A DNA stretch of 64,000 nucleotides, taken from contig JAAYVC010000095.1 in NCBI GenBank assembly GCA_012517375.1, positions 7,061 through 71,060 on the forward strand. Reading direction: 5' to 3'. Made by a program: the position numbers and the translations under genes. This stretch comes from a bacterium. Lineage in GTDB: Bacteria; Hydrothermota; Tepidihabitantia; B3-TA06. Below, piece by piece: positions 13,806 to 63,033 of this stretch (the stretch's first letter is position 1; the number at the start of each line of letters is the position of its first letter). The notes beneath the pieces were generated by a model, which was given only the letters and a program-made list of their open reading frames with translations, did not search any database and was not told where the DNA came from.

Positions 13806-14461
13806 TGTTCTCAAGATTCGTTGATCCTTCATACTGGAAAGCTATATTGCTGGCCCTACCTGGAATGCTTATCGGACTGGTTTTTCATGAATTTTCCCAT
13901 GCATGGATGGCTAACAAAATGGGGGACCCCACACCAAGAGAATTCGGCAGATTAACCCTTAACCCGCTCCGCCATTTAGATATTATTGGAACCCTCGCCC
14001 TCGTTTTCCTGCGTTTCGGTTGGGCAAAGCCGGTGCCAATAAATCCGAATAATTTTAGAAATCCCCGTAGAGATATAATACTTGTCTCGCTTGCAGGACC
14101 AGGTTCAAATTTGATACTTGCTGTCTTCTTTGCTCTGCTATTTCGCTTGCTTAGTTACCTGATACCGATAGACACGCCTTTAGTAGCCTTATTCAAAGGC
14201 ATTGTGGGAATGACTGTACTTTACAATTTTCTTTTGGCTTTCTTTAATATCATCCCAATACCACCATTAGACGGTTCCCAGATTCTTTTCAGTTTACTGC
14301 CGTCGAGATTATCTAATGCCCTTCCGTGGCTGCAGCGCTACGGCTTTATAATCCTCTTACTCCTCCTTGCATTCGGCGTGCTATGGCCGGTAATAGGATT
14401 CCCCAGCGTGTTATTCACTACCCTTATTGCTGGTCCTGAAGCATTATTAGGGGGAATCTGA
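13799..14461 (+). CDS. Site-2 protease family membrane zinc metalloprotease (M50).
   Basis: It has the HEFSHAW HExxH motif in a transmembrane helix. It is a multi-pass membrane protein of about 220 aa. Confidence 0.75.
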   Translation: MLMFSRFVDPSYWKAILLALPGMLIGLVFHEFSHAWMANKMGDPTPREFGRLTLNPLRHLDIIGTLALVFLRFGWAKPVPINPNNFRNPRRDIILVSLAGPGSNLILAVFFALLFRLLSYLIPIDTPLVALFKGIVGMTVLYNFLLAFFNIIPIPPLDGSQILFSLLPSRLSNALPWLQRYGFIILLLLLAFGVLWPVIGFPSVLFTTLIAGPEALLGGI

Positions 14462-16866
14462 TGGCACGAGTAAAAACAGAAAAGAAATCTCCAAATCCAT
14501 CAAAGACAAATGGCGAAAAAACAAAAAATCAAAAAAACAAGAGAGATAATACTGATCCTATCATAGGTCTCCTTTTGATTCTTATTGCCGGCTTTGTAAC
14601 AATAAGCCTTATCAGCTTTGTTCCGAAAGGAACCGTTGATAATCCATTAAACTGGGGTGGCGTTCTTGGCTTCCTTCTCGCAAAAGCTCTTTACTCAGGG
14701 ATAGGAGTCGTTTCCTTTGTTATTCCCTTGCTGATTTTATTATGGGGAATAAATCGATTGCTGCGCAGACCTGCAAAAAAACTTTTACTGTCATCGTTAG
14801 TGCTTCTGGGTTTTTCTTTTTTTGTTGAAACAACACTGGGTTATTTTCATAACATACCGTTTTTTCCGGTAAGGACGCCCTCGGGCAAAATACTAGAATC
14901 TATGACGCTTGCCGGTAAACTAGGTTCTGCAGTATTTGATTACTTGGCAAACCTTGTAGGAAGACTGGGTCTTGGCTTCATTCTGGGATTTCTGCTGCTT
15001 ATTTCAGTTGTTCTGATATTTGACATCAATCTTCACAAACTCATTGTTAATGCAATTGAAAAGGCTAAGCGCATTTCTGAAGAAAATCGTCAGAAAAGAG
15101 CTATCATGGAAGCTACGCGGACGAAATCCGAATTCGAAGAAGAAGCGGAATTAACGCAACAGAAAGGTGAAAACGGAGAAAAAGAAACTACCGAAAAGAA
15201 TGATGAAAACAAGATAATAATCCCTACAGAGAGGATTGTGAGGCAGATTCCTGCGGAAATACCTGTAGAAGAACTTCATCTTGCAGAACTCCTGGACCCT
15301 GTAAACGAAGACTGGGATACCCTTCCGGATCATGAGGCTAAAGAAGGGGCAAAACTTCTTGTCAAAAGACTGGAGGAATTCGGGGTTACAGGCTCGGTAG
15401 GAGATATCATACCTGGACCTGTAATTACTCGATATGAGTTTCACCCTGCCCCGGGAATCAAGATATCTAAAATAATGGGACTCGCAGACGATCTTTCTCT
15501 ATCCTTGAAGGCAGAAAGAATAAGGATATTGCCGATTCCAGGGAAATCTGCCGTCGGGATAGAAATTCCCAACAGGAATCGAAAAAAAGTCGGGCTTCGC
15601 CTCGTTGTCGGCTCAAAGGATTTTCTTGATTCGCAGAGCCCTTTAACGATAGCGTTAGGAACAACAATAACCGGCGTACCGGAAGTTGCCGACCTTGCCG
15701 ATATCCCTCATCTATTAATTGCTGGCACTACAGGTTCGGGTAAATCAGTTTGTATTCACAGCCTGCTTACAAGCATGTTAATAAAATCAAGTCCAGCAGA
15801 TGTACGTTTCATGGCTATAGACCCAAAAAGGCTTGAACTGCCTGCCTATAATCCAATTCCTCACTTCATTCAGCCCGCTATTGTCGACCCCAGACAGGCA
15901 GCTAATAGTCTGGAGTTCGTAGTAAAGATCATGGAGGAAAGATACAAGGAGTTTTCTCGAGTAGGCGTCAGGGATATTGCAGGCTATAATGCTCAAACTA
16001 AGAACAAACGGCCTTATATAGTAGTCGTCGTGGACGAACTGGCCGATTTAATGCTTACTGCCCCTGCTGAAATAGAGCAACGTATTATTAGACTTGCACA
16101 AATGGCAAGAGCGGTCGGAATTCACCTGGTCTTAGCCACGCAAAGACCATCTGTAGATGTAATAACAGGACTGATAAAGGCAAACTTCCCTGGCCGAATT
16201 GCATTCCAGGTTGCCTCAAAAACAGACTCAAGAACGATTCTTGATATGAACGGAGCTGAAGCTCTTCTTGGCCGCGGAGACATGCTCTTTCTGCCCCCGG
16301 GTAAAGGCGAACCTGTAAGACTCCATGGGTCGTTCGTTTCAACAGGTGAAGCTGAAAGAATTGTTGATAAGCTCGCTGAATCGAGATTGAAATCCCTGCT
16401 TTCGACACAATTGGACGAAGAAAGGGCTTCAGAATTAGCCGAGGCCATCCTTTCCGCGGATCTCCTTGATCCCCTGCTCGATCCTTACGAACCTCTTTTC
16501 CAAACCAAACGGCAGCGCCTCGCAGAAATCATCTCTCCTGAGATACTCGCAGCCGTTGAGGGTCATTATTATCCTCCAATGGAAGAACTTGCTCCAATAA
16601 GAGAGCAGATGCAGCACACTGGTTCTATAGATGAAGTAGATGAATTCTTTGCGGAAGCGGCAAGACTCGTGATCAGGAATAAAGAAGCCTCGGTTTCGAT
16701 GCTGCAAAGACGTTTGAATGTGGGATGGGCAAGAGCTGGAAGAATAATCGATCAGCTTGAGCAAGCGACCATTGTCGGTCCTTATGAAGGCAGCAAATCC
16801 AGAAAGGTTCTGGTTCAGGATGAATCGGAACTTGAGAAAATCCTTAAGGGATTCGGGAATCTGTAG
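14461..16866 (+). CDS. ftsK: DNA translocase FtsK/SpoIIIE.
   Basis: It has N-terminal transmembrane helices and Walker A AGTTGSGKSV. It also has VVVVDELADLM, ATQRPSVDVITG, and a gamma winged-helix domain (QRRLNVGWARAGRIIDQLE). Confidence 0.95.
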   Translation: MARVKTEKKSPNPSKTNGEKTKNQKNKRDNTDPIIGLLLILIAGFVTISLISFVPKGTVDNPLNWGGVLGFLLAKALYSGIGVVSFVIPLLILLWGINRLLRRPAKKLLLSSLVLLGFSFFVETTLGYFHNIPFFPVRTPSGKILESMTLAGKLGSAVFDYLANLVGRLGLGFILGFLLLISVVLIFDINLHKLIVNAIEKAKRISEENRQKRAIMEATRTKSEFEEEAELTQQKGENGEKETTEKNDENKIIIPTERIVRQIPAEIPVEELHLAELLDPVNEDWDTLPDHEAKEGAKLLVKRLEEFGVTGSVGDIIPGPVITRYEFHPAPGIKISKIMGLADDLSLSLKAERIRILPIPGKSAVGIEIPNRNRKKVGLRLVVGSKDFLDSQSPLTIALGTTITGVPEVADLADIPHLLIAGTTGSGKSVCIHSLLTSMLIKSSPADVRFMAIDPKRLELPAYNPIPHFIQPAIVDPRQAANSLEFVVKIMEERYKEFSRVGVRDIAGYNAQTKNKRPYIVVVVDELADLMLTAPAEIEQRIIRLAQMARAVGIHLVLATQRPSVDVITGLIKANFPGRIAFQVASKTDSRTILDMNGAEALLGRGDMLFLPPGKGEPVRLHGSFVSTGEAERIVDKLAESRLKSLLSTQLDEERASELAEAILSADLLDPLLDPYEPLFQTKRQRLAEIISPEILAAVEGHYYPPMEELAPIREQMQHTGSIDEVDEFFAEAARLVIRNKEASVSMLQRRLNVGWARAGRIIDQLEQATIVGPYEGSKSRKVLVQDESELEKILKGFGNL

Positions 16867-30034: not shown

Positions 30035-30312
30035 AGTCCCTTTAGACCTGAACTTAACTAACAAAAAATGAGCTCGTCAAGGCGCTGTAAATGCATGCTC
30101 GTCTTACTGGCTGTAAGATATTCCTTGCTTAAACTTATGATGAGTATGTTTTTACAACCTCTCGAATCCGCTATAAAGTTATCCACAATCCACAATTCAA
30201 GGAATAAGGCAGGCATAAGTGCAGTGATTCATTAATCCTGACTCGGTTTGTGGCACGCTTTCCGCTCGCCGTAGCACGCTTGAGGTCAGGTTTTATGGAC
30301 AAATACTCCCCA

Positions 30313-30356
30313 AAAGCTGGTCAAAAGATGGTCAGAAGATGGTCAAATGATGGTCA
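30313..30356 (+). repeat. Four tandem copies of the 11-bp direct repeat RAWGMTGGTCA.
   Basis: The copies are AAAGCTGGTCA AAAGATGGTCA GAAGATGGTCA AATGATGGTCA. The same unit recurs at 53412-53444 and 53542-53607. Confidence 0.9.
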
Positions 30357-30748
30357 ATTTCGAGGGTGTTGGGTGCTCAGGTATTGTTTTAAGACCCGAT
30401 CCACTGAGTGAAAGCCGACCCTATTTCTTTGTAGAGATTAAGCAGGTCGGTTTACCTTGTGCTCTTGAGCTTTTCCTTAGTCTTGGGTTCGGACAGGCCT
30501 TGTGGGAACTCAGGAGGATAATAAATAGCAATAGCCATATCTGCGCTTAATTGCTCTATTCTTTTCTTAGCATCGGCTTCGGCATCTTGCTTGGAGTAGG
30601 AACCCTCAAGAACAACGGCAAGACCTTGATAGGAAACAAGGACATCCTGTCTTCCCTTTTTCCCTATTAGTTCGGCTCTTGAGATAATGCCTGTTTGGTG
30701 AAGTAACTCTGACAGGTAAACGTTTAGAATACTCTCATAAACAAACTT

Positions 30749-46103: not shown

Positions 46104-46721
46104 CTAACCCCTTATTATCTCTTTAATCCTCATGAGGCGAGTGAGATTCCCTCGCTCCATCTCCGAAAGCTTCAGGTTAATGTAGGAGATCGTTTCCTTG
46201 ATATTCGGGACCACTATGTATTCCAGGGCATTCACGCGCCGCCGGGTACGCTCAATCTCTTCGGCAACAAGTTCAAGTGTCTTCTCCTTCTCGGCCAATA
46301 GAACCATCTTTTCGAGAACGGCGAATATAGCTTCAAGCGAAAGGTCAAGCTCGGCAGACGTTTCGAGAAAACCGTAGCACCGCATTTTTCCTTCGAGCCT
46401 TGGCTTGAAGGTCGGCGCCTTTACGTTAAGGATTCTTTTCGTCCCTGATTCTATTTCGAGTTTCACAGACGGAAGCGACGTTGCGATATCGGCCGAGCGG
46501 GGATTACGCTGATTCTTGGCCAAAGCGTATCTGGCAAAGGCTTTCCTCAGTGCGTCCTCCACCTCCTTCCGGAGAGCCTGAATCTCGTCGACAAGAGAGT
46601 AGACATTGCGCATGAGCTCTTCGAGCTTGTCCTTGAGAAGTTTGTGGCCTCGCTCCGCGATAACGAGTCTCCGCCTCAGCTTCAGGAGCTCCATCCTTGT
46701 CGCGTTGACGTTCAATCTCAC
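46104..46721 (-). CDS. atpD: V-type ATP synthase subunit D.
   Basis: The N-terminus MRLNVNATRMELLKLRRRLVIAERGHKLLKDK is a hallmark of the V/A-type D subunit. Confidence 0.9.
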   Translation of the reverse strand: MRLNVNATRMELLKLRRRLVIAERGHKLLKDKLEELMRNVYSLVDEIQALRKEVEDALRKAFARYALAKNQRNPRSADIATSLPSVKLEIESGTKRILNVKAPTFKPRLEGKMRCYGFLETSAELDLSLEAIFAVLEKMVLLAEKEKTLELVAEEIERTRRRVNALEYIVVPNIKETISYINLKLSEMERGNLTRLMRIKEIIRG

Positions 46722-46772: not shown

Positions 46773-48266
46773 TCAGTCCTTCTTCGAATCCTTGCCGGCA
46801 AGGGCTGCATCGAAGTATTTCGCAAGATTCTCATCACGGACGCGCTTCATTTCAGATCTTGGAAGCGTGGTCAGGAGCTCCCAGCCCAGGTCGAGCGTAT
46901 ACTCTATTGTTCTGTTCTCATATTCCGACTGGGAGATGTAGCGGCGTTCGAAATCCTCCGCAAACTTCATGTAAAGCTTATCTATATCCGTGAGAGCGGC
47001 CTCTCCGAGAATGACCGCAAGTTCCTGAGCCTCTTTCCCTCTCGCGTAAGCCGCATATAGCTGATTGAAGGAATCGGCATGATCCTCACGAGTCTTGCCT
47101 TTGCCGATGCCCTTATCCTTCAAACGAGAGAGAGAAGGAAGAACGTCTACGGGAGGCGCGACGTTCTTGTTGTTGAGGACTCGGGAGAGGATTATCTGAC
47201 CTTCGGTGATGTAGCCTGTGAGGTCGGGAATAGGATGGGTCTTATCGTCCTCAGGCATGGTAAGTATGGGTATGAGGGTTATGGAACCCTTAGAGCCTTT
47301 GATTCTTCCGGACCGCTCATAGATAGTCGCAAGATCAGTGTAGAGATAGCCGGGATAACCGCGCCTGCCGGGAATCTCCTTTCTTGCTGCCGAGATCTCG
47401 CGAAGCGCCTCGCAGTAGTTGGTCAAATCGGTCAAGATGACGAGAACGTGGTAATTCTTTGTAAAAGCCAGGTACTCGGCTGCGGTGAATGCCACGCGCG
47501 GTGTTGCGATTCGCTCGATTGCCGGGTCATCGGCAAGATTAAGAAAAAGGACGGTGCGTTCAAGAGCGCCAGTGCGTCGGAAATCCTCGATGAAAAACTC
47601 TGCCTCCTCGAAGGTAATGCCCATTGCTCCGAAGACGACTGCGAACTCCTCGCCCGTTCCAAGAACCCTGGACTGCCGGGCAATCTGCGCGGCCATGCGG
47701 TTGTGAGGAAGACCGGAACCTGAGAAGATGGGCAGCTTCTGACCGCGAACTAGCGTGTTGAGGCCGTCGATGGCGGAGATGCCTGTCTGGATGAACTCGT
47801 TAGGGTAGCTTCTTGAGAAAGGATTGATAGGAAGACCGTTTATGTCCCTGAACTCCTCGGGTATGATTGCGGGAGAGTGGTCGCGCGGCCTGCCAAGACC
47901 GTCGAATACCCTGCCTAAAAGCTCTTCGGAGACACCCAGGGTGATGCCCTTACCGAGAAAGCGCACGCGTGTTTGGCCTATTTCGATTCCGGACGAACCC
48001 TCGAATATCTGGATAAGAGCCTTATCCTGGTTGACCTCAAGCACTCTGCCCCTGCGGCGTTCGCCTGACGGAAGGTAAATCTCAACGAGTTCTTCGTATT
48101 TGACTCCCTCCACTCCCTCGACAAGAAGCAAAGGCCCTGCAACTGAGGAGATAGTCTGGTAATCGGTTATGCCTTTAAAGGCTCTAGTTACATCTGATGC
48201 ATCACTGGTGTCGCTGGTGCTACGGGTGTTACGGGTATTACTGGTATTACGGGTGTTACGGGTCAT
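46773..48266 (-). CDS. atpB: V-type ATP synthase subunit B, with an unusual ~27-aa low-complexity N-terminal extension.
   Basis: The core from [36 protein letters not shown]... onward aligns with the NtpB/AtpB consensus. The N-terminal [26 protein letters not shown] is encoded by 9-bp tandem repeats. Its ATG overlaps the atpA stop. Confidence 0.9.
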
Positions 48267-50035
48267 GATACATCCTTTCTCAAAGCTGAAATATCTGTGG
48301 TGATTTCTTCTTCGATTTTCGTGATGCTTTCCCGTTCGGCTTCAGGCAGGTATCTGACTCGGGCTATCTTCTCCCTTACGGGCAGATTGATAAGGCCGTC
48401 AAGCCCGGCGCCCTGTTCGAGCGCCTTCTTCGATTCGCGGAAGTATCTGAGTACAAGGGAGAGCATGCGCGCCTGCTTATCAAGGCTTGCGTATGTGTCA
48501 ATCTCGTGGAATGCGTTTTGATGCAGGAAATCCTCGCGGATAGAGCGCGCGGCTTCCATTATAAGGCGCTCGTTAGGCGAAAGGGCGTCAATGCCTATGA
48601 GACGGACTATCTCAGCGAGATCGGCCTCCTCCTGAAGAAGCCTCATGGCTTCCTTTGAATCCTCGAGGAACTTCGGACCGATGACCGATTTAAGGGATGA
48701 GGCTATTGAGTCAGAGTATAAGGAGTACGAACGAAGCCAGGAGATGGCAGGAAAATGGCGGGCGTAGGCAAGGTTCGCTTCAAGCGACCAGAACACCTTC
48801 ACGACGCGAAGGGTCGCCTGCACTACAGGGTCGGAAAGGTCTCCTCCGGGTGGCGAAACTGCTCCTATTACGGAAAGCGCGCCACGCCTTGAATCCGAGC
48901 CAAGGCACTCGACAAGCCCGGCCCGCTCGTAAAACTCGGCGATACGGGCGGAGAGGTATGCAGGATAACCTTCCTCGCCCGGCATCTCCTCGAGCCTGCC
49001 GGATATCTCGCGCATTGCTTCTGCCCACCTTGAGGTCGAGTCTGCCATAAGGGCCACGGAGTAGCCCATATCGCGGAAATATTCTGCGATAGTTATTCCT
49101 GTGTAGACTGAGGCTTCGCGCGCAGCAACCGGCATGTTAGATGTGTTGGCTATGAGTACCGTCCGTTTCATAAGGGGTTCTCCGGACTTGGGGTCCTTGA
49201 GTTCAGGGAACTCGATGAGAACGTCGGTCATCTCGTTACCGCGCTCTCCGCAGCCCACGTACACGATGACCTCGGCATCAGCCCATTTAGCAAGCTGGTG
49301 CTGGATTACCGTTTTTCCAGAACCGAAAGGTCCTGGAACGCAGGCGGTTCCTCCCTTACCCAGAGGGAAAAAAGCATCAACCACGCGCTGTCCGGTCGAA
49401 AGTATCTCATGCGGAGCGTATTTGCGTTCATAAGGTCTGGGCTTGCGGACCGGCCAGCGTTCGAGCATTGTCACTTCAGCCTTTTTCCCGTCGGCATTCT
49501 TGATAACGGCAACGGTTTCTTCGATTGTAAAGCTGCCGGAGTTTATCTCCACTACCTCGCCTGAAACTCCGGGCGGAACCATTATCCTGTGCTCTACAAG
49601 GATGGTTTCTTTTACCGTACCGAGGATATCGCCGGGTTTTACGTTCTGGCCTTTTTTTGCAGAAGGATTAAACTGCCACCTGCGCTGTCTTGAAAGAGCA
49701 GGGACTTCCACACCGCGGGATATGAATGCTCCCGTTTTTTCACTGATGTCGGACAATGGACGCTGGATGCCGTCGTAAATGGCTTCCATGAGTCCTGGAC
49801 CAAGCTCGACTGAAAGAGGTTCGAAGGTCGGATACACGGGTTCTCCCGGGCCTATCCCACCCGTATCTTCGTAAACCTGAATGGACGCTCTGTCGCCTGT
49901 AAGACCGATTATCTCTCCGACCAGACGTTTTTCCGAAACCTTAACCACATCGTACATCTTCGAGGTGCTCATACCCTCTGCGACAACTAGGGGTCCTGAA
50001 ACCTTAACTATGCGACCGGTATCTTCTTTTCTCAC
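48263..50035 (-). CDS. atpA: V-type ATP synthase catalytic subunit A.
   Basis: It has Walker [10 protein letters not shown] and the typical non-homologous-region insert. It is 590 aa. Confidence 0.95.
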
Positions 50036-53232: not shown

Positions 53233-53411
53233 CTTAAGTTATTCCTTTCCTTAAGTTATAGATTGACTTAAGCTGAGGGATTCAATTCCTACGACACGTA
53301 ATAAGTGACGGCGATTTACTAAGTTATTTTTTATTTTTATTTCGATGGAACCAAGCGCATCTTTCTAAAAGGGTCCCCGCAAAGCTGCGGAGCAGGTTTG
53401 TGGGATAGAAA

Positions 53412-53444
53412 AAGATGGTCAAAAGATGATCAAAAGATGGACAA
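53412..53444 (+). repeat. Three tandem 11-bp repeats of the RAAGNTGGTCA family.
   Basis: The copies are AAAGATGGTCA AAAGATGATCA AAAGATGGACA. Confidence 0.85.
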
Positions 53445-53520: not shown

Positions 53521-53541
53521 TCGGAGTATTTTTCGTGAAAA

Positions 53542-53607
53542 AAAGTAGGTCAGAAGTTGGTCAGAAGTGGGACAAAAGATGGTCAAAAGCTGGTCAAAAG
53601 ATGGACA
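53542..53607 (+). repeat. Six tandem 11-bp repeats of the RAAGNTGGTCA family.
   Basis: The copies are AAAGTAGGTCA GAAGTTGGTCA GAAGTGGGACA AAAGATGGTCA AAAGCTGGTCA AAAGATGGACA. Confidence 0.9.
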
Positions 53608-53806
53608 AATCAACCGCTAAGATGAAGTCAGATTTAATAGTTTGTTGTCAGGTTCAATGGAACGCCTCAGAGCAACATTCCAATGTCATTGCGAGGCTTC
53701 ATCCAGAAGACGAAGCAATTGCCCAAATCATCTTGATCTTTACCCTCTCCTCAGGAAGATGATTCAACGTAGGGGCCGACTTTCAAGTCGACCCGCACCG
53801 CTCGGG

Positions 53807-58741: not shown

Positions 58742-59509
58742 TTAAAGCGGCAGAAAAATCTGGCGCCTGCCTGTCTGCGGGTGCCGGCCCTCGACCGGCC
58801 GCACTCCCCAGTAACGTTCTATGATCTCTGGCTTAAGGAGCGCGTCGGGAGAATCGTCCTCGGCTAGCCGGCCGCGGGCGAAGATGAGCATCCGGTTCGA
58901 GCAGAGCGCGGCCTGGTTGAGGTCGTGCGCAACGAGAACGATGCAAATCCCCTCCTCGTTCAAGCTTCTGAGAAGCGCGAGCACATCGTGCTGGTGTGCA
59001 AGATCTAGATGATTGAGAGGTTCATCGAGAAGGATTACGGATGGCTCCTGCACGAGCGCTCGACAGATAACGGCGAGTTGGCGCTCTCCAGATGAGATAT
59101 TGTTGATGGACTTTTCCGCGAGATGGAGAATACCAAGCCTCTCGAGCGCCGAGCGGGCTAGGGCGTAATCGGATGAGCGATAGCGCTCGAGCGCGCCAAG
59201 GTAAGGATGGCGTCCATGAAGCACGGTCTCGATAACGGTAAAATCAAGGCTGAAACGGCTCTCCTGCGCAACGTATGCAAGGCTTCTGGCAAGCTCGCGT
59301 CGGCTGATGGAATCGAGCTCGGTACTGTTAAATAGGATACCGCCGGACGATGGATGAAGAAGACGCGCGAGAAGCTTCACGAACGTGCTCTTTCCTGCCC
59401 CGTTCGGTCCAACAACGGATACGAATTCGCTCTTGCCGATGCTCGCCGAGAGGTTCTCGAAAAGAGGCCGTCTCGGATAGGAGAAGGAAAGCGCGCGAAC
59501 ATCAAACAC
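58742..59509 (-). CDS. ABC transporter ATP-binding protein (iron-siderophore/cobalamin type, BtuD/FecE-like).
   Basis: It has Walker A GPNGAGKST, the signature LSGGERQ and Walker B ILLDEP. Confidence 0.9.
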   Translation of the reverse strand: MFDVRALSFSYPRRPLFENLSASIGKSEFVSVVGPNGAGKSTFVKLLARLLHPSSGGILFNSTELDSISRRELARSLAYVAQESRFSLDFTVIETVLHGRHPYLGALERYRSSDYALARSALERLGILHLAEKSINNISSGERQLAVICRALVQEPSVILLDEPLNHLDLAHQHDVLALLRSLNEEGICIVLVAHDLNQAALCSNRMLIFARGRLAEDDSPDALLKPEIIERYWGVRPVEGRHPQTGRRQIFLPL

Positions 59510-60446
59510 TAAGCCTCCTTTTCATGATGAAGAGGAAGAACGGCACGCCTATAATCGTTGTGACAACCGAAAGTGGCAGATAAACGTTCGTAGCCATGGA
59601 AAAAAGCCTGAGCGCGAGATCGGAGGCGAGAAGCAAAGATGCTCCAACAAGGACGCTTGCCGGAAGAACCCGCAAGTGTCTGGGCCCGAAGAGGAAACGG
59701 ACGATATGGGGAACAATAAGCCCCACGAAGCTCACGGCGCCTGCAAATGCGACAACGACACCAACGAGCAAGGCGGATATTATAAAGACCTCGGAAGTCA
59801 GTCTGCGCGTGTTGACTCCCAGCGTTTCCGCGGCTTCTACGTTGGATGAAAGGATATCGAGCGAGCGCCATCGACCGAGTATCCATGCGGCGCCTGCAAC
59901 GGAAAGCGATGCCGAAACGATAAATGTCCAGAGTTCCTGCGGGGTAAAGATGATGTTGGTCGAACCCATAAGAAGATAGATGATCTGGGAAAGTTCGGAG
60001 CGTGAAAGCACCATGAGCACCATTACAAGGCTCGAACAGACGAAGCTCAGGGCAACCCCTGAGAGTATGAGGGATAGCCTGGTCGCCCTGCCGCGAACGC
60101 TGGCTATTGCGTACACGAGCGCAAGCGCGCCTATTGCTCCTGCGAACGCGAATAAAGGCCTGCCGAAAACGGACGTCCACCCGAAAAGAAGCGAAAGGGC
60201 GACACCGACTCCCGCACCTGAGGATGAGCCGATTATATAAGGGTCTACTAAAGGGTTTTCGAGAAGCCCCTGCAAGCTGGCGCCCACGAATGCAAGAATA
60301 CCGCCCGCAAATACGGTCAAAATCACCCTCGGAAGCCGGAAAACCAGCAGCTCAAGGGAGAATCCGGCAGGTCCCAAAAAGCAAGAAAGGATTACAAGCG
60401 CGGCAAGAAGGATACCAAGAAGCAGCCAGCCCAGACTAGTGCGCAT
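59502..60446 (-). CDS. ABC transporter permease (FecCD/BtuC family).
   Basis: It is 314 aa with about 9 transmembrane helices. It has the FecCD-type pattern ...GAIGALALV..RLSL...G. Confidence 0.85.
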   Translation of the reverse strand: MRTSLGWLLLGILLAALVILSCFLGPAGFSLELLVFRLPRVILTVFAGGILAFVGASLQGLLENPLVDPYIIGSSSGAGVGVALSLLFGWTSVFGRPLFAFAGAIGALALVYAIASVRGRATRLSLILSGVALSFVCSSLVMVLMVLSRSELSQIIYLLMGSTNIIFTPQELWTFIVSASLSVAGAAWILGRWRSLDILSSNVEAAETLGVNTRRLTSEVFIISALLVGVVVAFAGAVSFVGLIVPHIVRFLFGPRHLRVLPASVLVGASLLLASDLALRLFSMATNVYLPLSVVTTIIGVPFFLFIMKRRLSV

Positions 60447-61344
60447 GAGTGACGATGGAATCTGTTTTTACGAGAGCACCGACAAAACGAGGACCCGGAC
60501 GCATCATCTCGTCAAGCGGAAGAGAATCAAAAACCAGCCTTTCCCTTACAGCGGGGATGCCGGACCAGCCGATGCGCGAAAGCACGGATTCCCGACTCGC
60601 GCCGGGATAAAGAAGCAGTATGACCCTTGGCGAGCGTTTGATGACCTCCTCCTGGTCAATAGCAGGATACCCTTCACGTTCGGAAAATACGTTGCGAAGC
60701 CCTATTTTTTCGAGTCCATCGGTAATGTATGTCTTTCCGACGGTAATCAAGGGACTCGACGATATCTCAACGTAGACAGAAACGGTTTCCCTTTTTTCTA
60801 TCGAGGCAAGCTCCCTGCGAAGACTGTCTGCAAGCCGCTTTCCCTTCTCGTGAACGCCGACAGTATCCGCTAGCGATTCAATCTGTTCAAGCATCTCCTT
60901 AATGCTGGAGGGATCCCTGAACACGGCTACCCTGTATCCCATTGTCTTCAGGGACACAGCAAGCTGAGACTGCGTCGGCGTCGTAACAAGAATTAAATCC
61001 GGCTTCAACGCCTCGAGCTTTTCAGGATCTGGAGAAAGAAAATCGCCGACAGTTGGCTTAGTTAATGCATCTTTAGGATAGTCGCAGAAGGTCGTAACAC
61101 CCGCAAGCCTTGATTCCGCGCCCAATGCATACACTATCTCGGTAAGACTCGGTACAAGCGAAACAATCCTCTTTGGATGACCTTCGCTCTTCTGTCTGCC
61201 AGATGGAAAGCAGGAACTAAGGCTTAAAGCGAGGAGAAAGAGGAGTATTCCTTGAGTACTCTTTATAAACTTCGCCCCATTCAACGGCAAGCTTGCGCTC
61301 CTCGAATCTAATTTCAAGATACCACAAAGGAAGTCCCACAACAA
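60436..61344 (-). CDS. ABC transporter periplasmic substrate-binding lipoprotein (BtuF/FecB-like).
   Basis: It has lipobox LSLSSC. It has PKRIVSLVPSLTEIVYALG, typical of the cobalamin/siderophore-binding class. It overlaps the upstream ICMT gene by about 128 nt as annotated, so its true start is probably a downstream non-ATG codon. Confidence 0.7.
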   Translation of the reverse strand: MLWDFLCGILKLDSRSASLPLNGAKFIKSTQGILLFLLALSLSSCFPSGRQKSEGHPKRIVSLVPSLTEIVYALGAESRLAGVTTFCDYPKDALTKPTVGDFLSPDPEKLEALKPDLILVTTPTQSQLAVSLKTMGYRVAVFRDPSSIKEMLEQIESLADTVGVHEKGKRLADSLRRELASIEKRETVSVYVEISSSPLITVGKTYITDGLEKIGLRNVFSEREGYPAIDQEEVIKRSPRVILLLYPGASRESVLSRIGWSGIPAVRERLVFDSLPLDEMMRPGPRFVGALVKTDSIVTHAH

Positions 61345-61893: not shown

Positions 61894-63033
61894 TCAATCG
61901 TCCTCCTTTGCAAACATTTGCTTGGCTAACCATCCCGACACAAGACCTGTCGGTCTTGCTTGCACTCCCTCAAAAGCCATGTTGCCGACAAAAAGGGATG
62001 ACGGTACGATTACTTCTTTCACGTTCAAACCCAAATCTTTTTTGTTTTCTCCCGCCGACGCGATATAGTCCTCGCTTGAAACCGCAAGAAAAATCTCCGG
62101 GGAGAAAATCCTTCGCATCTGGCCGAAGGTTATATCACCTGCCGGCAACGAATCTCTGACAAACCCGTCTCCCAGGTAGACTATAGCGCCCTCCTGGGAT
62201 GCAGATTTCAAGATATTTTCAGCAAGCGTTCGAAGCGAATCCCTGCCTATGCCTTGAGCGCTGAAACCTATGATCTCGGAATCCATTGAATCGACTTTGG
62301 CGCTCCATAGCGAGTACGGATTAAGCGTCGACTGACCGGCTGGCCTTATAGGCTTCTCTTTGAGTCTGAATTCCCGAGCGCTTTGAATACTTAGGGTCAA
62401 GTCGCGGGACCTTCCTCCTCTGGAAATCGACTCGATTCCCGATGCGGCCTTGTTCAAGGAATCAGTGTTGAAGAAAAAAAAGTAGTCTGATTGAAGCGCG
62501 AGGAAAGATGCGGTAACGGGTAAAAGCGAGTCGGTATCTAAGAATTTCAAGCCCGCTGAACCCATTCCTTCGGGGAAAGCGGGCGCTGCAGCTGAAAAAG
62601 CAAGTCTGTAAGGACTCTGGGTTCTGATCATGTAGCGCGGAAGAGGATATCTCATCGAATCGTCGCAAAGATTGAGACTGACGATAAAGAAATCGGCCTC
62701 TGCTGATAGTTGCTTGAGCTTTTCTGCACCAAGATAAAGCCAAGTCGAAGGTGGAAGGAATATGTCAGCCCCCAGAGTATCACAGAGAAAGAGCTCCTTC
62801 TCGCCCTCCCACCATGCAAGATCGGCAAGAGTTGAAAAGGATGAATCATCAATTATAACAAGCGGTTTGTTGAATGATTTTATCGAGGAGTAGAGCGCGG
62901 AAAACTCGGCGTCCGAGCGAGGAAGTTCTGAGATGTACAGTATATCGAGCTCGCTCCTTGCTTTTTTAACGGATTGCGACGCGCATCCTGCCAAAAACAA
63001 AAAAATCGAGACGAGTGTAAGCCAACGCTTCAT
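61894..63033 (-). CDS. Hypothetical lipoprotein.
   Basis: It has lipobox FLFLAGC and is 379 aa. Any 5'-nucleotidase C-terminal resemblance is weak. Confidence 0.4.
   Translation of the reverse strand: MKRWLTLVSIFLFLAGCASQSVKKARSELDILYISELPRSDAEFSALYSSIKSFNKPLVIIDDSSFSTLADLAWWEGEKELFLCDTLGADIFLPPSTWLYLGAEKLKQLSAEADFFIVSLNLCDDSMRYPLPRYMIRTQSPYRLAFSAAAPAFPEGMGSAGLKFLDTDSLLPVTASFLALQSDYFFFFNTDSLNKAASGIESISRGGRSRDLTLSIQSAREFRLKEKPIRPAGQSTLNPYSLWSAKVDSMDSEIIGFSAQGIGRDSLRTLAENILKSASQEGAIVYLGDGFVRDSLPAGDITFGQMRRIFSPEIFLAVSSEDYIASAGENKKDLGLNVKEVIVPSSLFVGNMAFEGVQARPTGLVSGWLAKQMFAKEDD

What the first reader, a model, noticed from the sequence alone, without database searches (positions are those of the whole stretch)
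48190..48266. A 9-bp in-frame tandem repeat encodes a low-complexity N-terminal tail on V-ATPase subunit B
Roughly eight copies of ACGGGTRTT (and variants) on the plus strand encode [26 protein letters not shown] ahead of the conserved B-subunit N-terminus. No alternative start codon exists downstream, and the ATG overlaps the atpA stop, so the tail is probably translated. In-frame 9-bp repeats are slippage-prone. That gives a potentially length-variable, Ser/Thr/Asn/Arg-rich appendage on a core bioenergetic enzyme, which is highly unusual.
Basis: seen in the sequence. Interest (0 to 1): 0.5.

Follow-up and report, generated by a model that had tools for sequence, protein, structure and literature searches.

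The report
Repeat-encoded variable tail on V-ATPase B
A run of 9-base repeats sits just after the start codon of a core ATP-synthase gene and is almost certainly translated into a floppy, length-variable tail; in a related genome the same repeat sits in frame in other genes, so the tail looks like a tolerated passenger, not a new enzyme feature.

Summary
On the minus strand, atpB (46773..48266) starts at an ATG that overlaps the atpA stop (ATGA). Eight 9-bp units (ACCCGTAAC and variants, 48192..48263) follow and encode [24 protein letters not shown].

- **Translation:** very likely. There is an AAGGA Shine-Dalgarno 6 nt upstream, no ATG/GTG/TTG before codon 46, and the frame is open in all 11 loci examined (the window and 10 relatives).
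- **Not an artefact:** five assemblies carry the identical allele.
- **Length variation:** a second allele differs by 3 of 1398 nt in the atpB core but by +9 and +18 bp in the array.
- **Distribution:** every relative of at least 84% identity has a 19-57 aa low-complexity, mostly basic tail. Relatives at 80% or less start MIKEY or MKGIVDY.

The tail is not specific to atpB. A related contig (L177) has four such arrays in 13.5 kb, on four different genes. Three of those sites are empty in the window. Metagenome contigs of unestablished lineage carry the same unit in frame in MurE, a radical-SAM enzyme, a phosphatidyltransferase and a glycosyltransferase.

Best reading: a disordered passenger peptide from a lineage-specific dispersed repeat, changing by whole-unit indels. 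A function for the tail is neither shown nor excluded.

The parts
48192..48263 (-). In-frame array of eight 9-bp units (ACCCGTAAC and variants), codons 2-25 of atpB, encoding [24 protein letters not shown]. The best-conserved part is 48216..48263.
   Evidence: TRF period 9, score 68; lag-9 identity 0.74; 4 pattern matches against 0.06 expected.
48177..48191 (-). Codons 26-30 (VTRAF). This is the non-repeat end of the tail, just before the conserved core that starts at K31 (KGITDYQ), which aligns with the M-KGIVDY start of tail-less relatives.
   Evidence: PDB homologues align from query residue 33-35.
48263..48266 (-). ATGA junction. The atpB start codon ATG (48266..48264) overlaps the atpA stop TGA (48265..48263), the arrangement expected for translational coupling.
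   Evidence: The same overlapping or abutting junction is found in 10 relatives and in tail-less outgroups L012, L013 and L015.
48273..48277 (-). Shine-Dalgarno-like AAGGA, 6 nt upstream of the atpB ATG, inside the 3' end of atpA. The sister allele L006 has AAGGAGG here.
   Evidence: SD-like motifs precede 24 of 46 ORF starts in the window, against a 19% background.
46773..48266 (-). atpB, V/A-type ATPase subunit B, 497 aa. It is identical to NCBI NLI98991.1.
48263..50035 (-). atpA, V/A-type ATPase catalytic subunit A, 590 aa, immediately upstream in the operon C-F-A-B-D.

Best explanation
The tail is a translated, intrinsically disordered N-terminal extension of V/A-ATPase subunit B. It is encoded by an in-frame array of a short repeat, unit ACCCGTAAC. 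In a related genome of this WOR-3-type lineage the same unit is dispersed over several genes.

The array lies between codon 1 and the ancestral codon 2 of atpB. Because its first base is A, the ATGA overlap with the atpA stop, and so the coupling with atpA, is kept. Ribosomes must read through the array to make subunit B, because there is no other start.

The array gains and loses whole units, most simply by slipped-strand mispairing or unequal recombination, so closely related strains differ in tail length. It is tolerated because the N-terminus of B precedes the beta-barrel that forms the solvent-exposed crown of the A3B3 head.

Shown: the anatomy, in-frame conservation, allele variation, restriction to one clade, dispersal of the unit to other genes in a related genome, and predicted disorder. 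Inferred: that it is actually translated, that slippage is the mechanism, that it was inserted once in an ancestor, and that it has no effect on the enzyme.
For: Start site:
- AAGGA lies 6 nt upstream of the ATG that overlaps the atpA stop.
- There is no ATG/GTG/TTG before codon 46.
- AAGGAGG-type Shine-Dalgarno motifs (9 of 10) and the same junction occur in 10 orthologous loci.
- The tail frame is open in all 11 loci (window plus 10 relatives). The +2 frame has 1-10 stops.
- In L011 the gene caller chose an internal ATG, yet the upstream tail frame is still open from the ATGA.

Real sequence, variable length:
- The 497-aa allele has 0 nt differences across five Logan assemblies.
- The 506-aa allele (L006, L007) differs by 3 of 1398 nt in the atpB core and 4 of 969 nt in atpA, but by +9 and +18 bp in the array.
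- Within 90%-identity clusters, total protein lengths are 491, 495, 496, 499, 502, 503, 505, 517 and 524 aa.

Clade:
- All full-length hits with at least 84% identity carry tails of 19-57 aa, apart from two start-site miscalls (P0127; P0136).
- Those hits are labelled WOR-3, Stahlbacteria or TA06 B3.
- Hits at 80% or less start MIKEY, or MKGIVDY at the position of the window's KGITDY.

Dispersed family:
- L177 is syntenic with window 55.5-62 kb and holds four arrays in 13.5 kb.
- They form a C-terminal tail, a post-lipobox linker, an ABC-ATPase N-terminus that begins ATGACCCGTAAC on an ATGA overlap, and the atpB tail.
- The first three sites are empty in the window.
- Other metagenome contigs, whose lineage is not established, carry the array in frame in a CDP-alcohol phosphatidyltransferase N-terminus, MurE, a radical-SAM/DUF2344 linker and a GT4 glycosyltransferase.
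- One carries it at the start of a 904-codon ORF.

Disorder: in the AlphaFold2 model, residues 1-32 have pLDDT of about 30 and no secondary structure. The barrel begins at residue 34. PDB homologues align only from residue 33-35.
Against: - No protein-level data show that the tail is made.
- In the 64-kb window itself this is the only array, so dispersal is shown for a relative (L177), not for this genome.
- The lineage of most other array-bearing metagenome contigs was not established. Only L097 and L177 share orthologues with the window. Many pattern hits are unrelated low-complexity DNA in other frames (PAT, PVT, HPQ).
- Tails persist across the whole clade even where the repeat has decayed (P0005, P0007, P0008). 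Net charge is positive in 12 of 13 tails, +2 to +14, and zero in the other. This would also fit a selected function.
- Slippage is inferred from unit-sized indels. The 18-bp difference (ACTCCCTCCTCCCGTAAC) is not a simple copy of a unit.
Confidence: 0.62

Rival explanations
1. The tail is a selected functional arm. In this reading it is a basic, Ser/Thr/Asn-rich disordered peptide projecting from the crown of the A3B3 head. It would bind a partner such as the peripheral-stalk subunit E, a nucleic acid or another acidic ligand, or be a regulatory phosphorylation site with repeated R-x-T motifs.
For: - The tail is kept in every full-length relative of at least 84% identity, even where the 9-bp periodicity has decayed.
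- Net charge is positive in 12 of 13 tails, +2 to +14.
- The extreme N-terminus (M-T/P-P/R-H/R-N-T-R-N-T) and the pre-core K-L-Q/R-G recur across clusters.
- Eukaryotic B subunits have 25-45 aa N-terminal extensions at the same place.
Against: - Length (19-57 aa) and sequence are extremely variable. The window allele is only +2, and its distal half is acidic (TSDTSDASD).
- The same repeat occurs at termini and linkers of unrelated proteins, which a V-ATPase-specific role does not explain.
- Persistence is expected without selection, because the only start codon lies upstream of the array.
Confidence: 0.2
2. The constraint is on the RNA. The A+C-rich, G-poor array keeps the first roughly 90 nt of the atpB cistron unstructured, so that ribosomes finishing atpA restart efficiently at the overlapping ATG. 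The peptide would be a by-product.
For: - Tails are 63-71% A+C, against about 50-53% in the core, in all 11 loci.
- Their residues are mostly those with A/C-rich codons: T, P, H, N, Q, K.
- The predicted MFE of -40..+90 is weaker for the native sequence than for the tail-deleted sequence in 10 of 10 loci.
Against: - The predicted unpaired probability of the SD-start region is higher for the native sequence in only 6 of 10 loci. In the window itself it is lower: 0.34 native, 0.40 deleted.
- Tail-less relatives use the same ATGA junction without an array.
- The same arrays sit at C-termini and internal linkers, where initiation is irrelevant.
Confidence: 0.1
3. The array is not part of the protein. 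It is either an assembly artefact or an untranslated spacer, with subunit B starting at a non-canonical internal codon.
For: - ATA (codon 33) and ATC (codon 39) are in frame near the start of the core.
- One relative (L011) has an in-frame ATG two codons before the core.
Against: - The sequence is identical in five assemblies and the gene order is the same.
- There is no Shine-Dalgarno before ATA or ATC.
- The frame is open in all 11 loci, while another frame has up to 10 stops.
- Indels between the two alleles are multiples of 9.
- The Shine-Dalgarno and ATGA overlap are conserved at the upstream ATG.
Confidence: 0.04
4. It is a contingency (phase- or antigenic-variation) locus, in which repeat slippage switches or diversifies the product at high frequency within a population.
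For: It is a tandem repeat inside a coding region, and copy number differs between strains.
Against: - The 9-bp unit cannot shift the frame, so there is no on/off switch.
- The product is a cytoplasmic housekeeping subunit.
- One allele has 0 nt differences in five assemblies.
Confidence: 0.04

Closest known systems
Rickettsia palindromic elements (RPEs): dispersed repeats inserted in frame into unrelated protein-coding genes
   Same: A repeat family recurs in many unrelated housekeeping genes, always compatible with the reading frame. It is translated as extra peptide at permissive sites. RPEs are described this way in PMC10969869.
   Different: RPEs are single elements of about 100-150 bp. 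Here the basic element is a tandem array of a 9-bp unit with variable copy number. Only some relatives add a 57-nt hairpin-bearing insert. In the window itself only one site is occupied.
Cyanobacterial short tandemly repeated repetitive (STRR) heptamer arrays (from my own knowledge)
   Same: A lineage-specific short unit forms tandem arrays at many places in the genome.
   Different: STRR units are 7 bp and lie mainly between genes. Here the unit is 9 bp, with 12- and 15-bp variants, so the arrays can sit inside coding sequence and be translated.
Mycobacterial interspersed repetitive units (MIRUs) at intercistronic junctions (from my own knowledge)
   Same: Copy-number-variable repeats lie between cistrons of an operon, with stop and start codons overlapping those of the neighbouring genes. 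Here the ATGA junction appears at atpA-atpB and, in L177, at a permease-ATPase pair. L011 and L092 have a small ORF ending on the atpD start.
   Different: MIRU units are 40-100 bp and encode separate small ORFs. Here the array is fused to the downstream protein.
N-terminal extension of eukaryotic V-ATPase subunit B (yeast Vma2, mammalian B1 and B2)
   Same: An extra 25-45 residues precede the same beta-barrel start. The window core aligns from residue 26 of yeast B and residue 46 of mammalian B2.
   Different: The alignments start only at query residue 33-35, so no sequence similarity in the tail is detected. The eukaryotic extensions are not tandem repeats. Their reported actin-binding role (my own knowledge) has no known counterpart here.
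Simple-sequence contingency loci of pathogens
   Same: A tandem repeat in a coding region that varies in copy number between strains.
   Different: The unit is a multiple of 3, so it cannot switch the gene off. The protein is cytoplasmic. The allele is stable across five assemblies.

Membership tests
V/A-type ATPase subunit B | The N-terminal beta-barrel, nucleotide-binding and C-terminal domains of the alpha/beta family, in the V/A-type arrangement | tested here: met
   PF02874 (residues 39-105, 5e-13), PF00006 (162-380, 2e-78) and PF22919 (385-484, 5e-32). Best PDB match is E. hirae NtpB, E = 1e-220, over query 33-485.
V/A-type ATPase subunit B | Operon context next to catalytic subunit A and stalk subunit D | tested here: met
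   The order is C-F-A-B-D on the minus strand. The same order is found in 10 relatives.
In-frame dispersed repeat elements (RPE-like) | The same element is present at many loci of one genome | tested here: inconclusive
   Met in a relative: L177 has 4 arrays in 13.5 kb, and L097 and L123 lie on one 320-kb contig. Not met within the 64-kb window, where atpB holds the only array. The rest of this genome was not available.
In-frame dispersed repeat elements (RPE-like) | Insertions lie inside unrelated protein-coding genes and preserve the reading frame | tested here: met
   Found in a CDP-alcohol phosphatidyltransferase, MurE, a radical-SAM/DUF2344 protein and a GT4 (Pfam), and in an ABC ATPase, a lipoprotein linker and a C-terminal tail in L177. 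The orthologous sites in the window are empty.
In-frame dispersed repeat elements (RPE-like) | A palindromic element of about 100-150 bp | tested here: not met
   The window element is a 72-bp tandem array of 9-bp units with no palindrome. Only some relatives carry a 57-nt two-hairpin insert.
Contingency locus (phase-variable simple-sequence repeat) | A change in copy number shifts the frame or the promoter spacing and switches expression | tested here: not met
   The unit is 9 bp. The indels seen are +9 and +18 bp.
Contingency locus (phase-variable simple-sequence repeat) | High-frequency variation within populations | not testable with these tools
   Reads are not available. At assembly level one allele is identical in five assemblies.
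Eukaryotic-type B-subunit N-terminal extension | Sequence similarity of the extension to the eukaryotic B N-terminus | tested here: not met
   phmmer alignments to yeast and mammalian B start at query residue 34-35.
Known structured RNA families (Rfam), tested for the 57-nt insert seen in relatives | A match at or above a family's gathering score | tested here: not met
   The only hit is ivy-DE at 18.8 bits, against a gathering score of 41.4, E = 0.76.

The most novel reading that the evidence does not exclude
ACCCGTAAC arrays may form a previously undescribed family of coding-compatible selfish repeats in a WOR-3 subclade, together with the 57-nt two-hairpin insert that always sits right after ACCCGTA. 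Such a family would spread by an active insertion mechanism rather than slippage alone. It would settle preferentially at gene starts, gene ends and ATGA-coupled junctions, remodelling the termini of many housekeeping proteins. The atpB tail would be its oldest fixed copy.
Probability: 0.3. Interest if true: 0.65.

Novelty: new variant of a known kind. Interest (0 to 1): 0.45.

Why it matters
For V/A-ATPase biology, this is a natural series of N-terminal tails of 19-57 residues on a bacterial subunit B. It implies that the crown end of B tolerates almost any disordered peptide. That is useful for tagging, and for asking whether the eukaryotic B extension began the same way.

For genome evolution, it points to an uncultured lineage in which one 9-bp unit has entered several genes in frame. 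This resembles Rickettsia RPEs but is built from a tandem microrepeat. The window and L177 give filled and empty versions of the same sites, which is the material needed to work out how such repeats arise and spread.

For annotation, gene callers sometimes trim such tails (P0127 in L011), so start-site calls in this clade need care.

Tried and rejected
- **Tail-only protein search.** The third, a 41-aa natural tail, returned no candidate sharing three 5-residue words. That route to other proteins with RNT tails gave nothing.
- **The search for related loci in genome contigs with full AtpB.** No tail-clade genome or organism name came back. Apparent matches to query residues 1-12 in Clostridia were tblastn run-on into upstream DNA, not real tails.
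- **Linking array-bearing metagenome contigs to the window's lineage.** tblastn of window proteins tied only L097 and L177 to it. The window has no orthologues of MurE, the phosphatidyltransferase, the radical-SAM protein or the GT4 to compare.
- **Unit length versus coding status.** Spacings that are multiples of 3 made up 58 of 70 in arrays inside open frames of 200 codons or more, and 34 of 49 in arrays with no open frame of 100 codons. The difference is too weak to use, because 9 is the default unit everywhere.
- **Translation-enhancer idea.** The MFE is weaker with the tail in 10 of 10 loci, but SD-start accessibility improves in only 6 of 10, and not in the window.
- **Rfam on the 57-nt insert.** Nothing significant.
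- **Literature searches.** Searches for WOR-3 with tandem repeats, for a V-ATPase B N-terminal extension and for Stahlbacteria found no description of this feature.
- **A fuzzy-regex scan for the insert timed out.** blastn replaced it.

Full report
**1. What is there**

On the minus strand a 497-codon ORF (46773..48266) encodes V/A-type ATPase subunit B. It carries PF02874, PF00006 and PF22919. It lies in the operon order C-F-A-B-D.

Its ATG (48266..48264) overlaps the TGA of atpA (48265..48263). AAGGA lies 6 nt upstream. Codons 2-25 are eight 9-bp units: ACCCGTAAC, ACCCGTAAT, ACCAGTAAT, ACCCGTAAC, ACCCGTAGC, ACCAGCGAC, ACCAGTGAT, GCATCAGAT. They encode [29 protein letters not shown] follows, then the conserved [21 protein letters not shown].

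- TRF reports period 9, 5.3 copies and score 68 at 48216..48263.
- Base identity is 0.74 at lag 9.
- The two-unit pattern matches 4 times in 64 kb, all here, against 0.06 expected.

**2. Is the tail translated?**

There is no ATG, GTG or TTG in frame between codon 1 and TTG at codon 46. Codon 46 lies inside the conserved GPLLLVEG strand. ATA (codon 33) and ATC (codon 39) have no Shine-Dalgarno. The organism uses Shine-Dalgarno sites: 24 of 46 ORF starts have one, against a 19% background.

In ten orthologous loci from relatives the start is the same. It is an ATG overlapping or abutting the atpA stop, preceded by an AAGGAGG-type Shine-Dalgarno motif in nine. The tail frame is open in all 11 loci (window plus ten relatives), although the sequence is very different. 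The +2 frame has 1-10 stops.

In L011 the public gene call starts at an internal ATG (MQG...). The upstream frame is nevertheless open back to the ATGA and reads MTPHAAASRRRGDP....

Translation is therefore very likely. It is inferred, not shown.

**3. Artefact or real, fixed or variable?**

The exact 497-aa protein is NLI98991.1 and is on record from at least 11 contigs. Five Logan assemblies carry atpB with 0 nucleotide differences from the window. They are SRR15661549, SRR15661556, SRR15661557, ERR1876141 and SRR15712936.

A second allele of 506 aa is seen in SRR16241906 and SRR24100338. It differs by 3 of 1398 nt in the atpB core and 4 of 969 nt in atpA. In the array it has one extra ACCCGTAAC at the front and 18 extra bases (ACTCCCTCCTCCCGTAAC) in the middle.

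So the array changes by whole units far faster than the flanks change by substitution. It is still stable enough to be identical in five assemblies.

**4. Who has it?**

All full-length database relatives with at least 84% identity have a low-complexity N-terminal tail of 19-57 aa, apart from two start-site miscalls (P0127; P0136). They are labelled WOR-3, Candidatus Stahlbacteria or TA06 B3.

Examples are MTPHNTRNTRNTRNTPNTSLKTKKASVKGSRRLQG, MPRTRNTPRNTSPHNTPSKKKVLKSKK... and MTPQKTPSTKTEKTASKQKLRG. Within single 90% clusters, total protein lengths of 491 to 524 aa occur.

Relatives at 80% or less start MIKEY. The nearest ones start MKGIVDY or MKEIIDY, so their Met sits just before the residue that is K31 in the window. 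They use the same ATGA junction. The simplest history is one insertion between codon 1 and codon 2 in the ancestor of this subclade. Because the array starts with A, the TGA of atpA is preserved.

Tails are 63-71% A+C, against about 50-53% in the core. Net charge is positive in 12 of 13 tails and zero in the other.

**5. The repeat is not specific to atpB**

Many are unrelated low-complexity DNA read in other frames (PAT, PVT, HPQ). A subset has 49-57% G+C and the same unit.

The clearest case is L177. It carries an atpB with the tail MTPHNTRNTRNTRNTRNTPNTS... It is syntenic with window 55.5-62 kb, with 53-74% protein identity. It has four arrays in 13.5 kb:

| Site in L177 | Position in the protein | Window orthologue |
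|---|---|---|
| Orthologue of window 61894..63033 | C-terminal tail | Empty: ends ...KQMFAKEDD* |
| Orthologue of window 60436..61344 | Linker after the lipobox Cys | Empty |
| ABC ATPase, orthologue of window 58742..59509 | N-terminus; ORF starts ATGACCCGTAAC on an ATGA overlap with the upstream permease | Empty |
| atpB | N-terminal tail | Occupied |

Other contigs carry the array in frame in several genes, but their lineage was not established:

- the N-terminus of a CDP-alcohol phosphatidyltransferase
- the middle domain of MurE
- the linker of a radical-SAM/DUF2344 protein
- a GT4 glycosyltransferase (Pfam)
- the start of a 904-codon ORF

Some arrays lie between genes and include 7-, 8-, 10- and 11-nt units.

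In several relatives a 57-nt insert with two hairpins sits inside an array, exactly after ACCCGTA. Its sequence is CCCCTTCGGGGCATTCTCATAATTACTCGGAGCTTGCGCTCCGCTCACAAGGAAATA. At least nine copies are in the loci held, including one inside the atpB tail of L009. It has no Rfam match.

Within the window itself atpB holds the only array.

**6. Structure**

AlphaFold2 with a 36-sequence alignment gives pLDDT of about 30 and no secondary structure for residues 1-32. The beta-barrel starts at residue 34. The overall model is only moderate (mean pLDDT 69).

Solved homologues align from query residue 33-35. That corresponds to residue 2 of E. hirae NtpB, 7 of T. thermophilus B, 26 of yeast Vma2 and 46 of mammalian B2. 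So the tail precedes the whole fold. From general knowledge of V/A-ATPase structures, the N-terminal barrels form the crown of the A3B3 head, near where the peripheral stalks attach. Eukaryotic B subunits already carry unrelated extensions of similar length.

**7. Explanation and rivals**

The best-supported reading is a translated, disordered passenger peptide. It is produced by an in-frame array of a lineage-specific dispersed repeat. It changes by unit-sized indels and is tolerated at a solvent-exposed terminus.

- **Selected function.** A basic arm on the crown or a regulatory site is not excluded. The tail persists across the clade and its charge is consistently positive. Persistence is also expected without selection, because the only start codon lies upstream. 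The same repeat also occurs on unrelated proteins.
- **RNA-level role in coupled initiation.** Support is mixed. The MFE is weaker with the tail in 10 of 10 loci. SD-start accessibility is better in only 6 of 10, and not in the window.
- **Artefact, untranslated spacer, contingency locus.** The data are against all three.

**8. Comparison with known systems and novelty**

The nearest parallels are:

- Rickettsia palindromic elements, which are in-frame dispersed inserts (PMC10969869)
- cyanobacterial STRR arrays
- mycobacterial MIRUs at operon junctions

This case differs in being a tandem 9-bp array that is translated at protein termini and linkers. Literature searches found no description of it in WOR-3 or in V-ATPase work.

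I rate it a new variant of a known kind. Interest is moderate. It is ordinary as enzyme biology. It is more interesting as a case of coding-compatible repeat spread, which is so far shown for one related genome (L177) and not for this one.

Noticed in passing
window 30311-30357, 53410-53444, 53541-53609: Three intergenic arrays of a different, 11-bp unit (AAAAGATGGTC and variants, 3-6 copies each). One unit per helical turn suggests a binding-site array or a second dispersed repeat family.
   Followed up: partly
window 14461-16866 (+), N-terminus at about 14461-14560: An 801-aa ORF starts with another low-complexity basic tail, MARVKTEKKSPNPSKTNGEKTKNQKNKRDNTDP, ahead of a hydrophobic segment. 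TRF finds an AAAAAACA repeat at 14516-14540.
   Followed up: no
L009 3843-3916; L135 7965-8042; L109 5989-6062 and 11291-11364; L209, L172, L154, L211: A conserved 57-nt insert with two hairpins (CCCC-loop-GGGG and GGAGC-loop-GCTCC) always lies inside a 9-bp array, right after ACCCGTA. Its loops vary while its stems are kept. It is translated in frame inside the atpB tail of L009 and inside the N-terminal tail of a CDP-alcohol phosphatidyltransferase. It has no Rfam match.
   Followed up: partly
L011 7490-7590; L092 4100-4215: An insertion of about 85 nt carrying 9-bp units sits after the first 26 or so nt of atpD, and the atpD start is duplicated. The upstream copy opens a 33-codon ORF whose TGA overlaps the real atpD ATG. 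This hints at insertion rather than slippage alone.
   Followed up: partly
L177 60-125, 845-915, 2617-2720, compared with window about 61894, 61250 and 59509: Three filled-versus-empty site pairs between a related genome and the window: a C-terminal tail, a post-lipobox linker and an ABC-ATPase N-terminus.
   Followed up: yes
L011 5917-6003 (protein P0127): The public gene call starts AtpB at an internal ATG (MQG...), although the tail frame is open from the ATGA upstream. Start-site calls for this clade are inconsistent.
   Followed up: yes
window 46104-46721 (-): The mechanical ORF for atpD starts at GTG (205 aa). Public calls on identical DNA (L001) give 196 aa from a downstream ATG. The atpD start is unresolved.
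   Followed up: no
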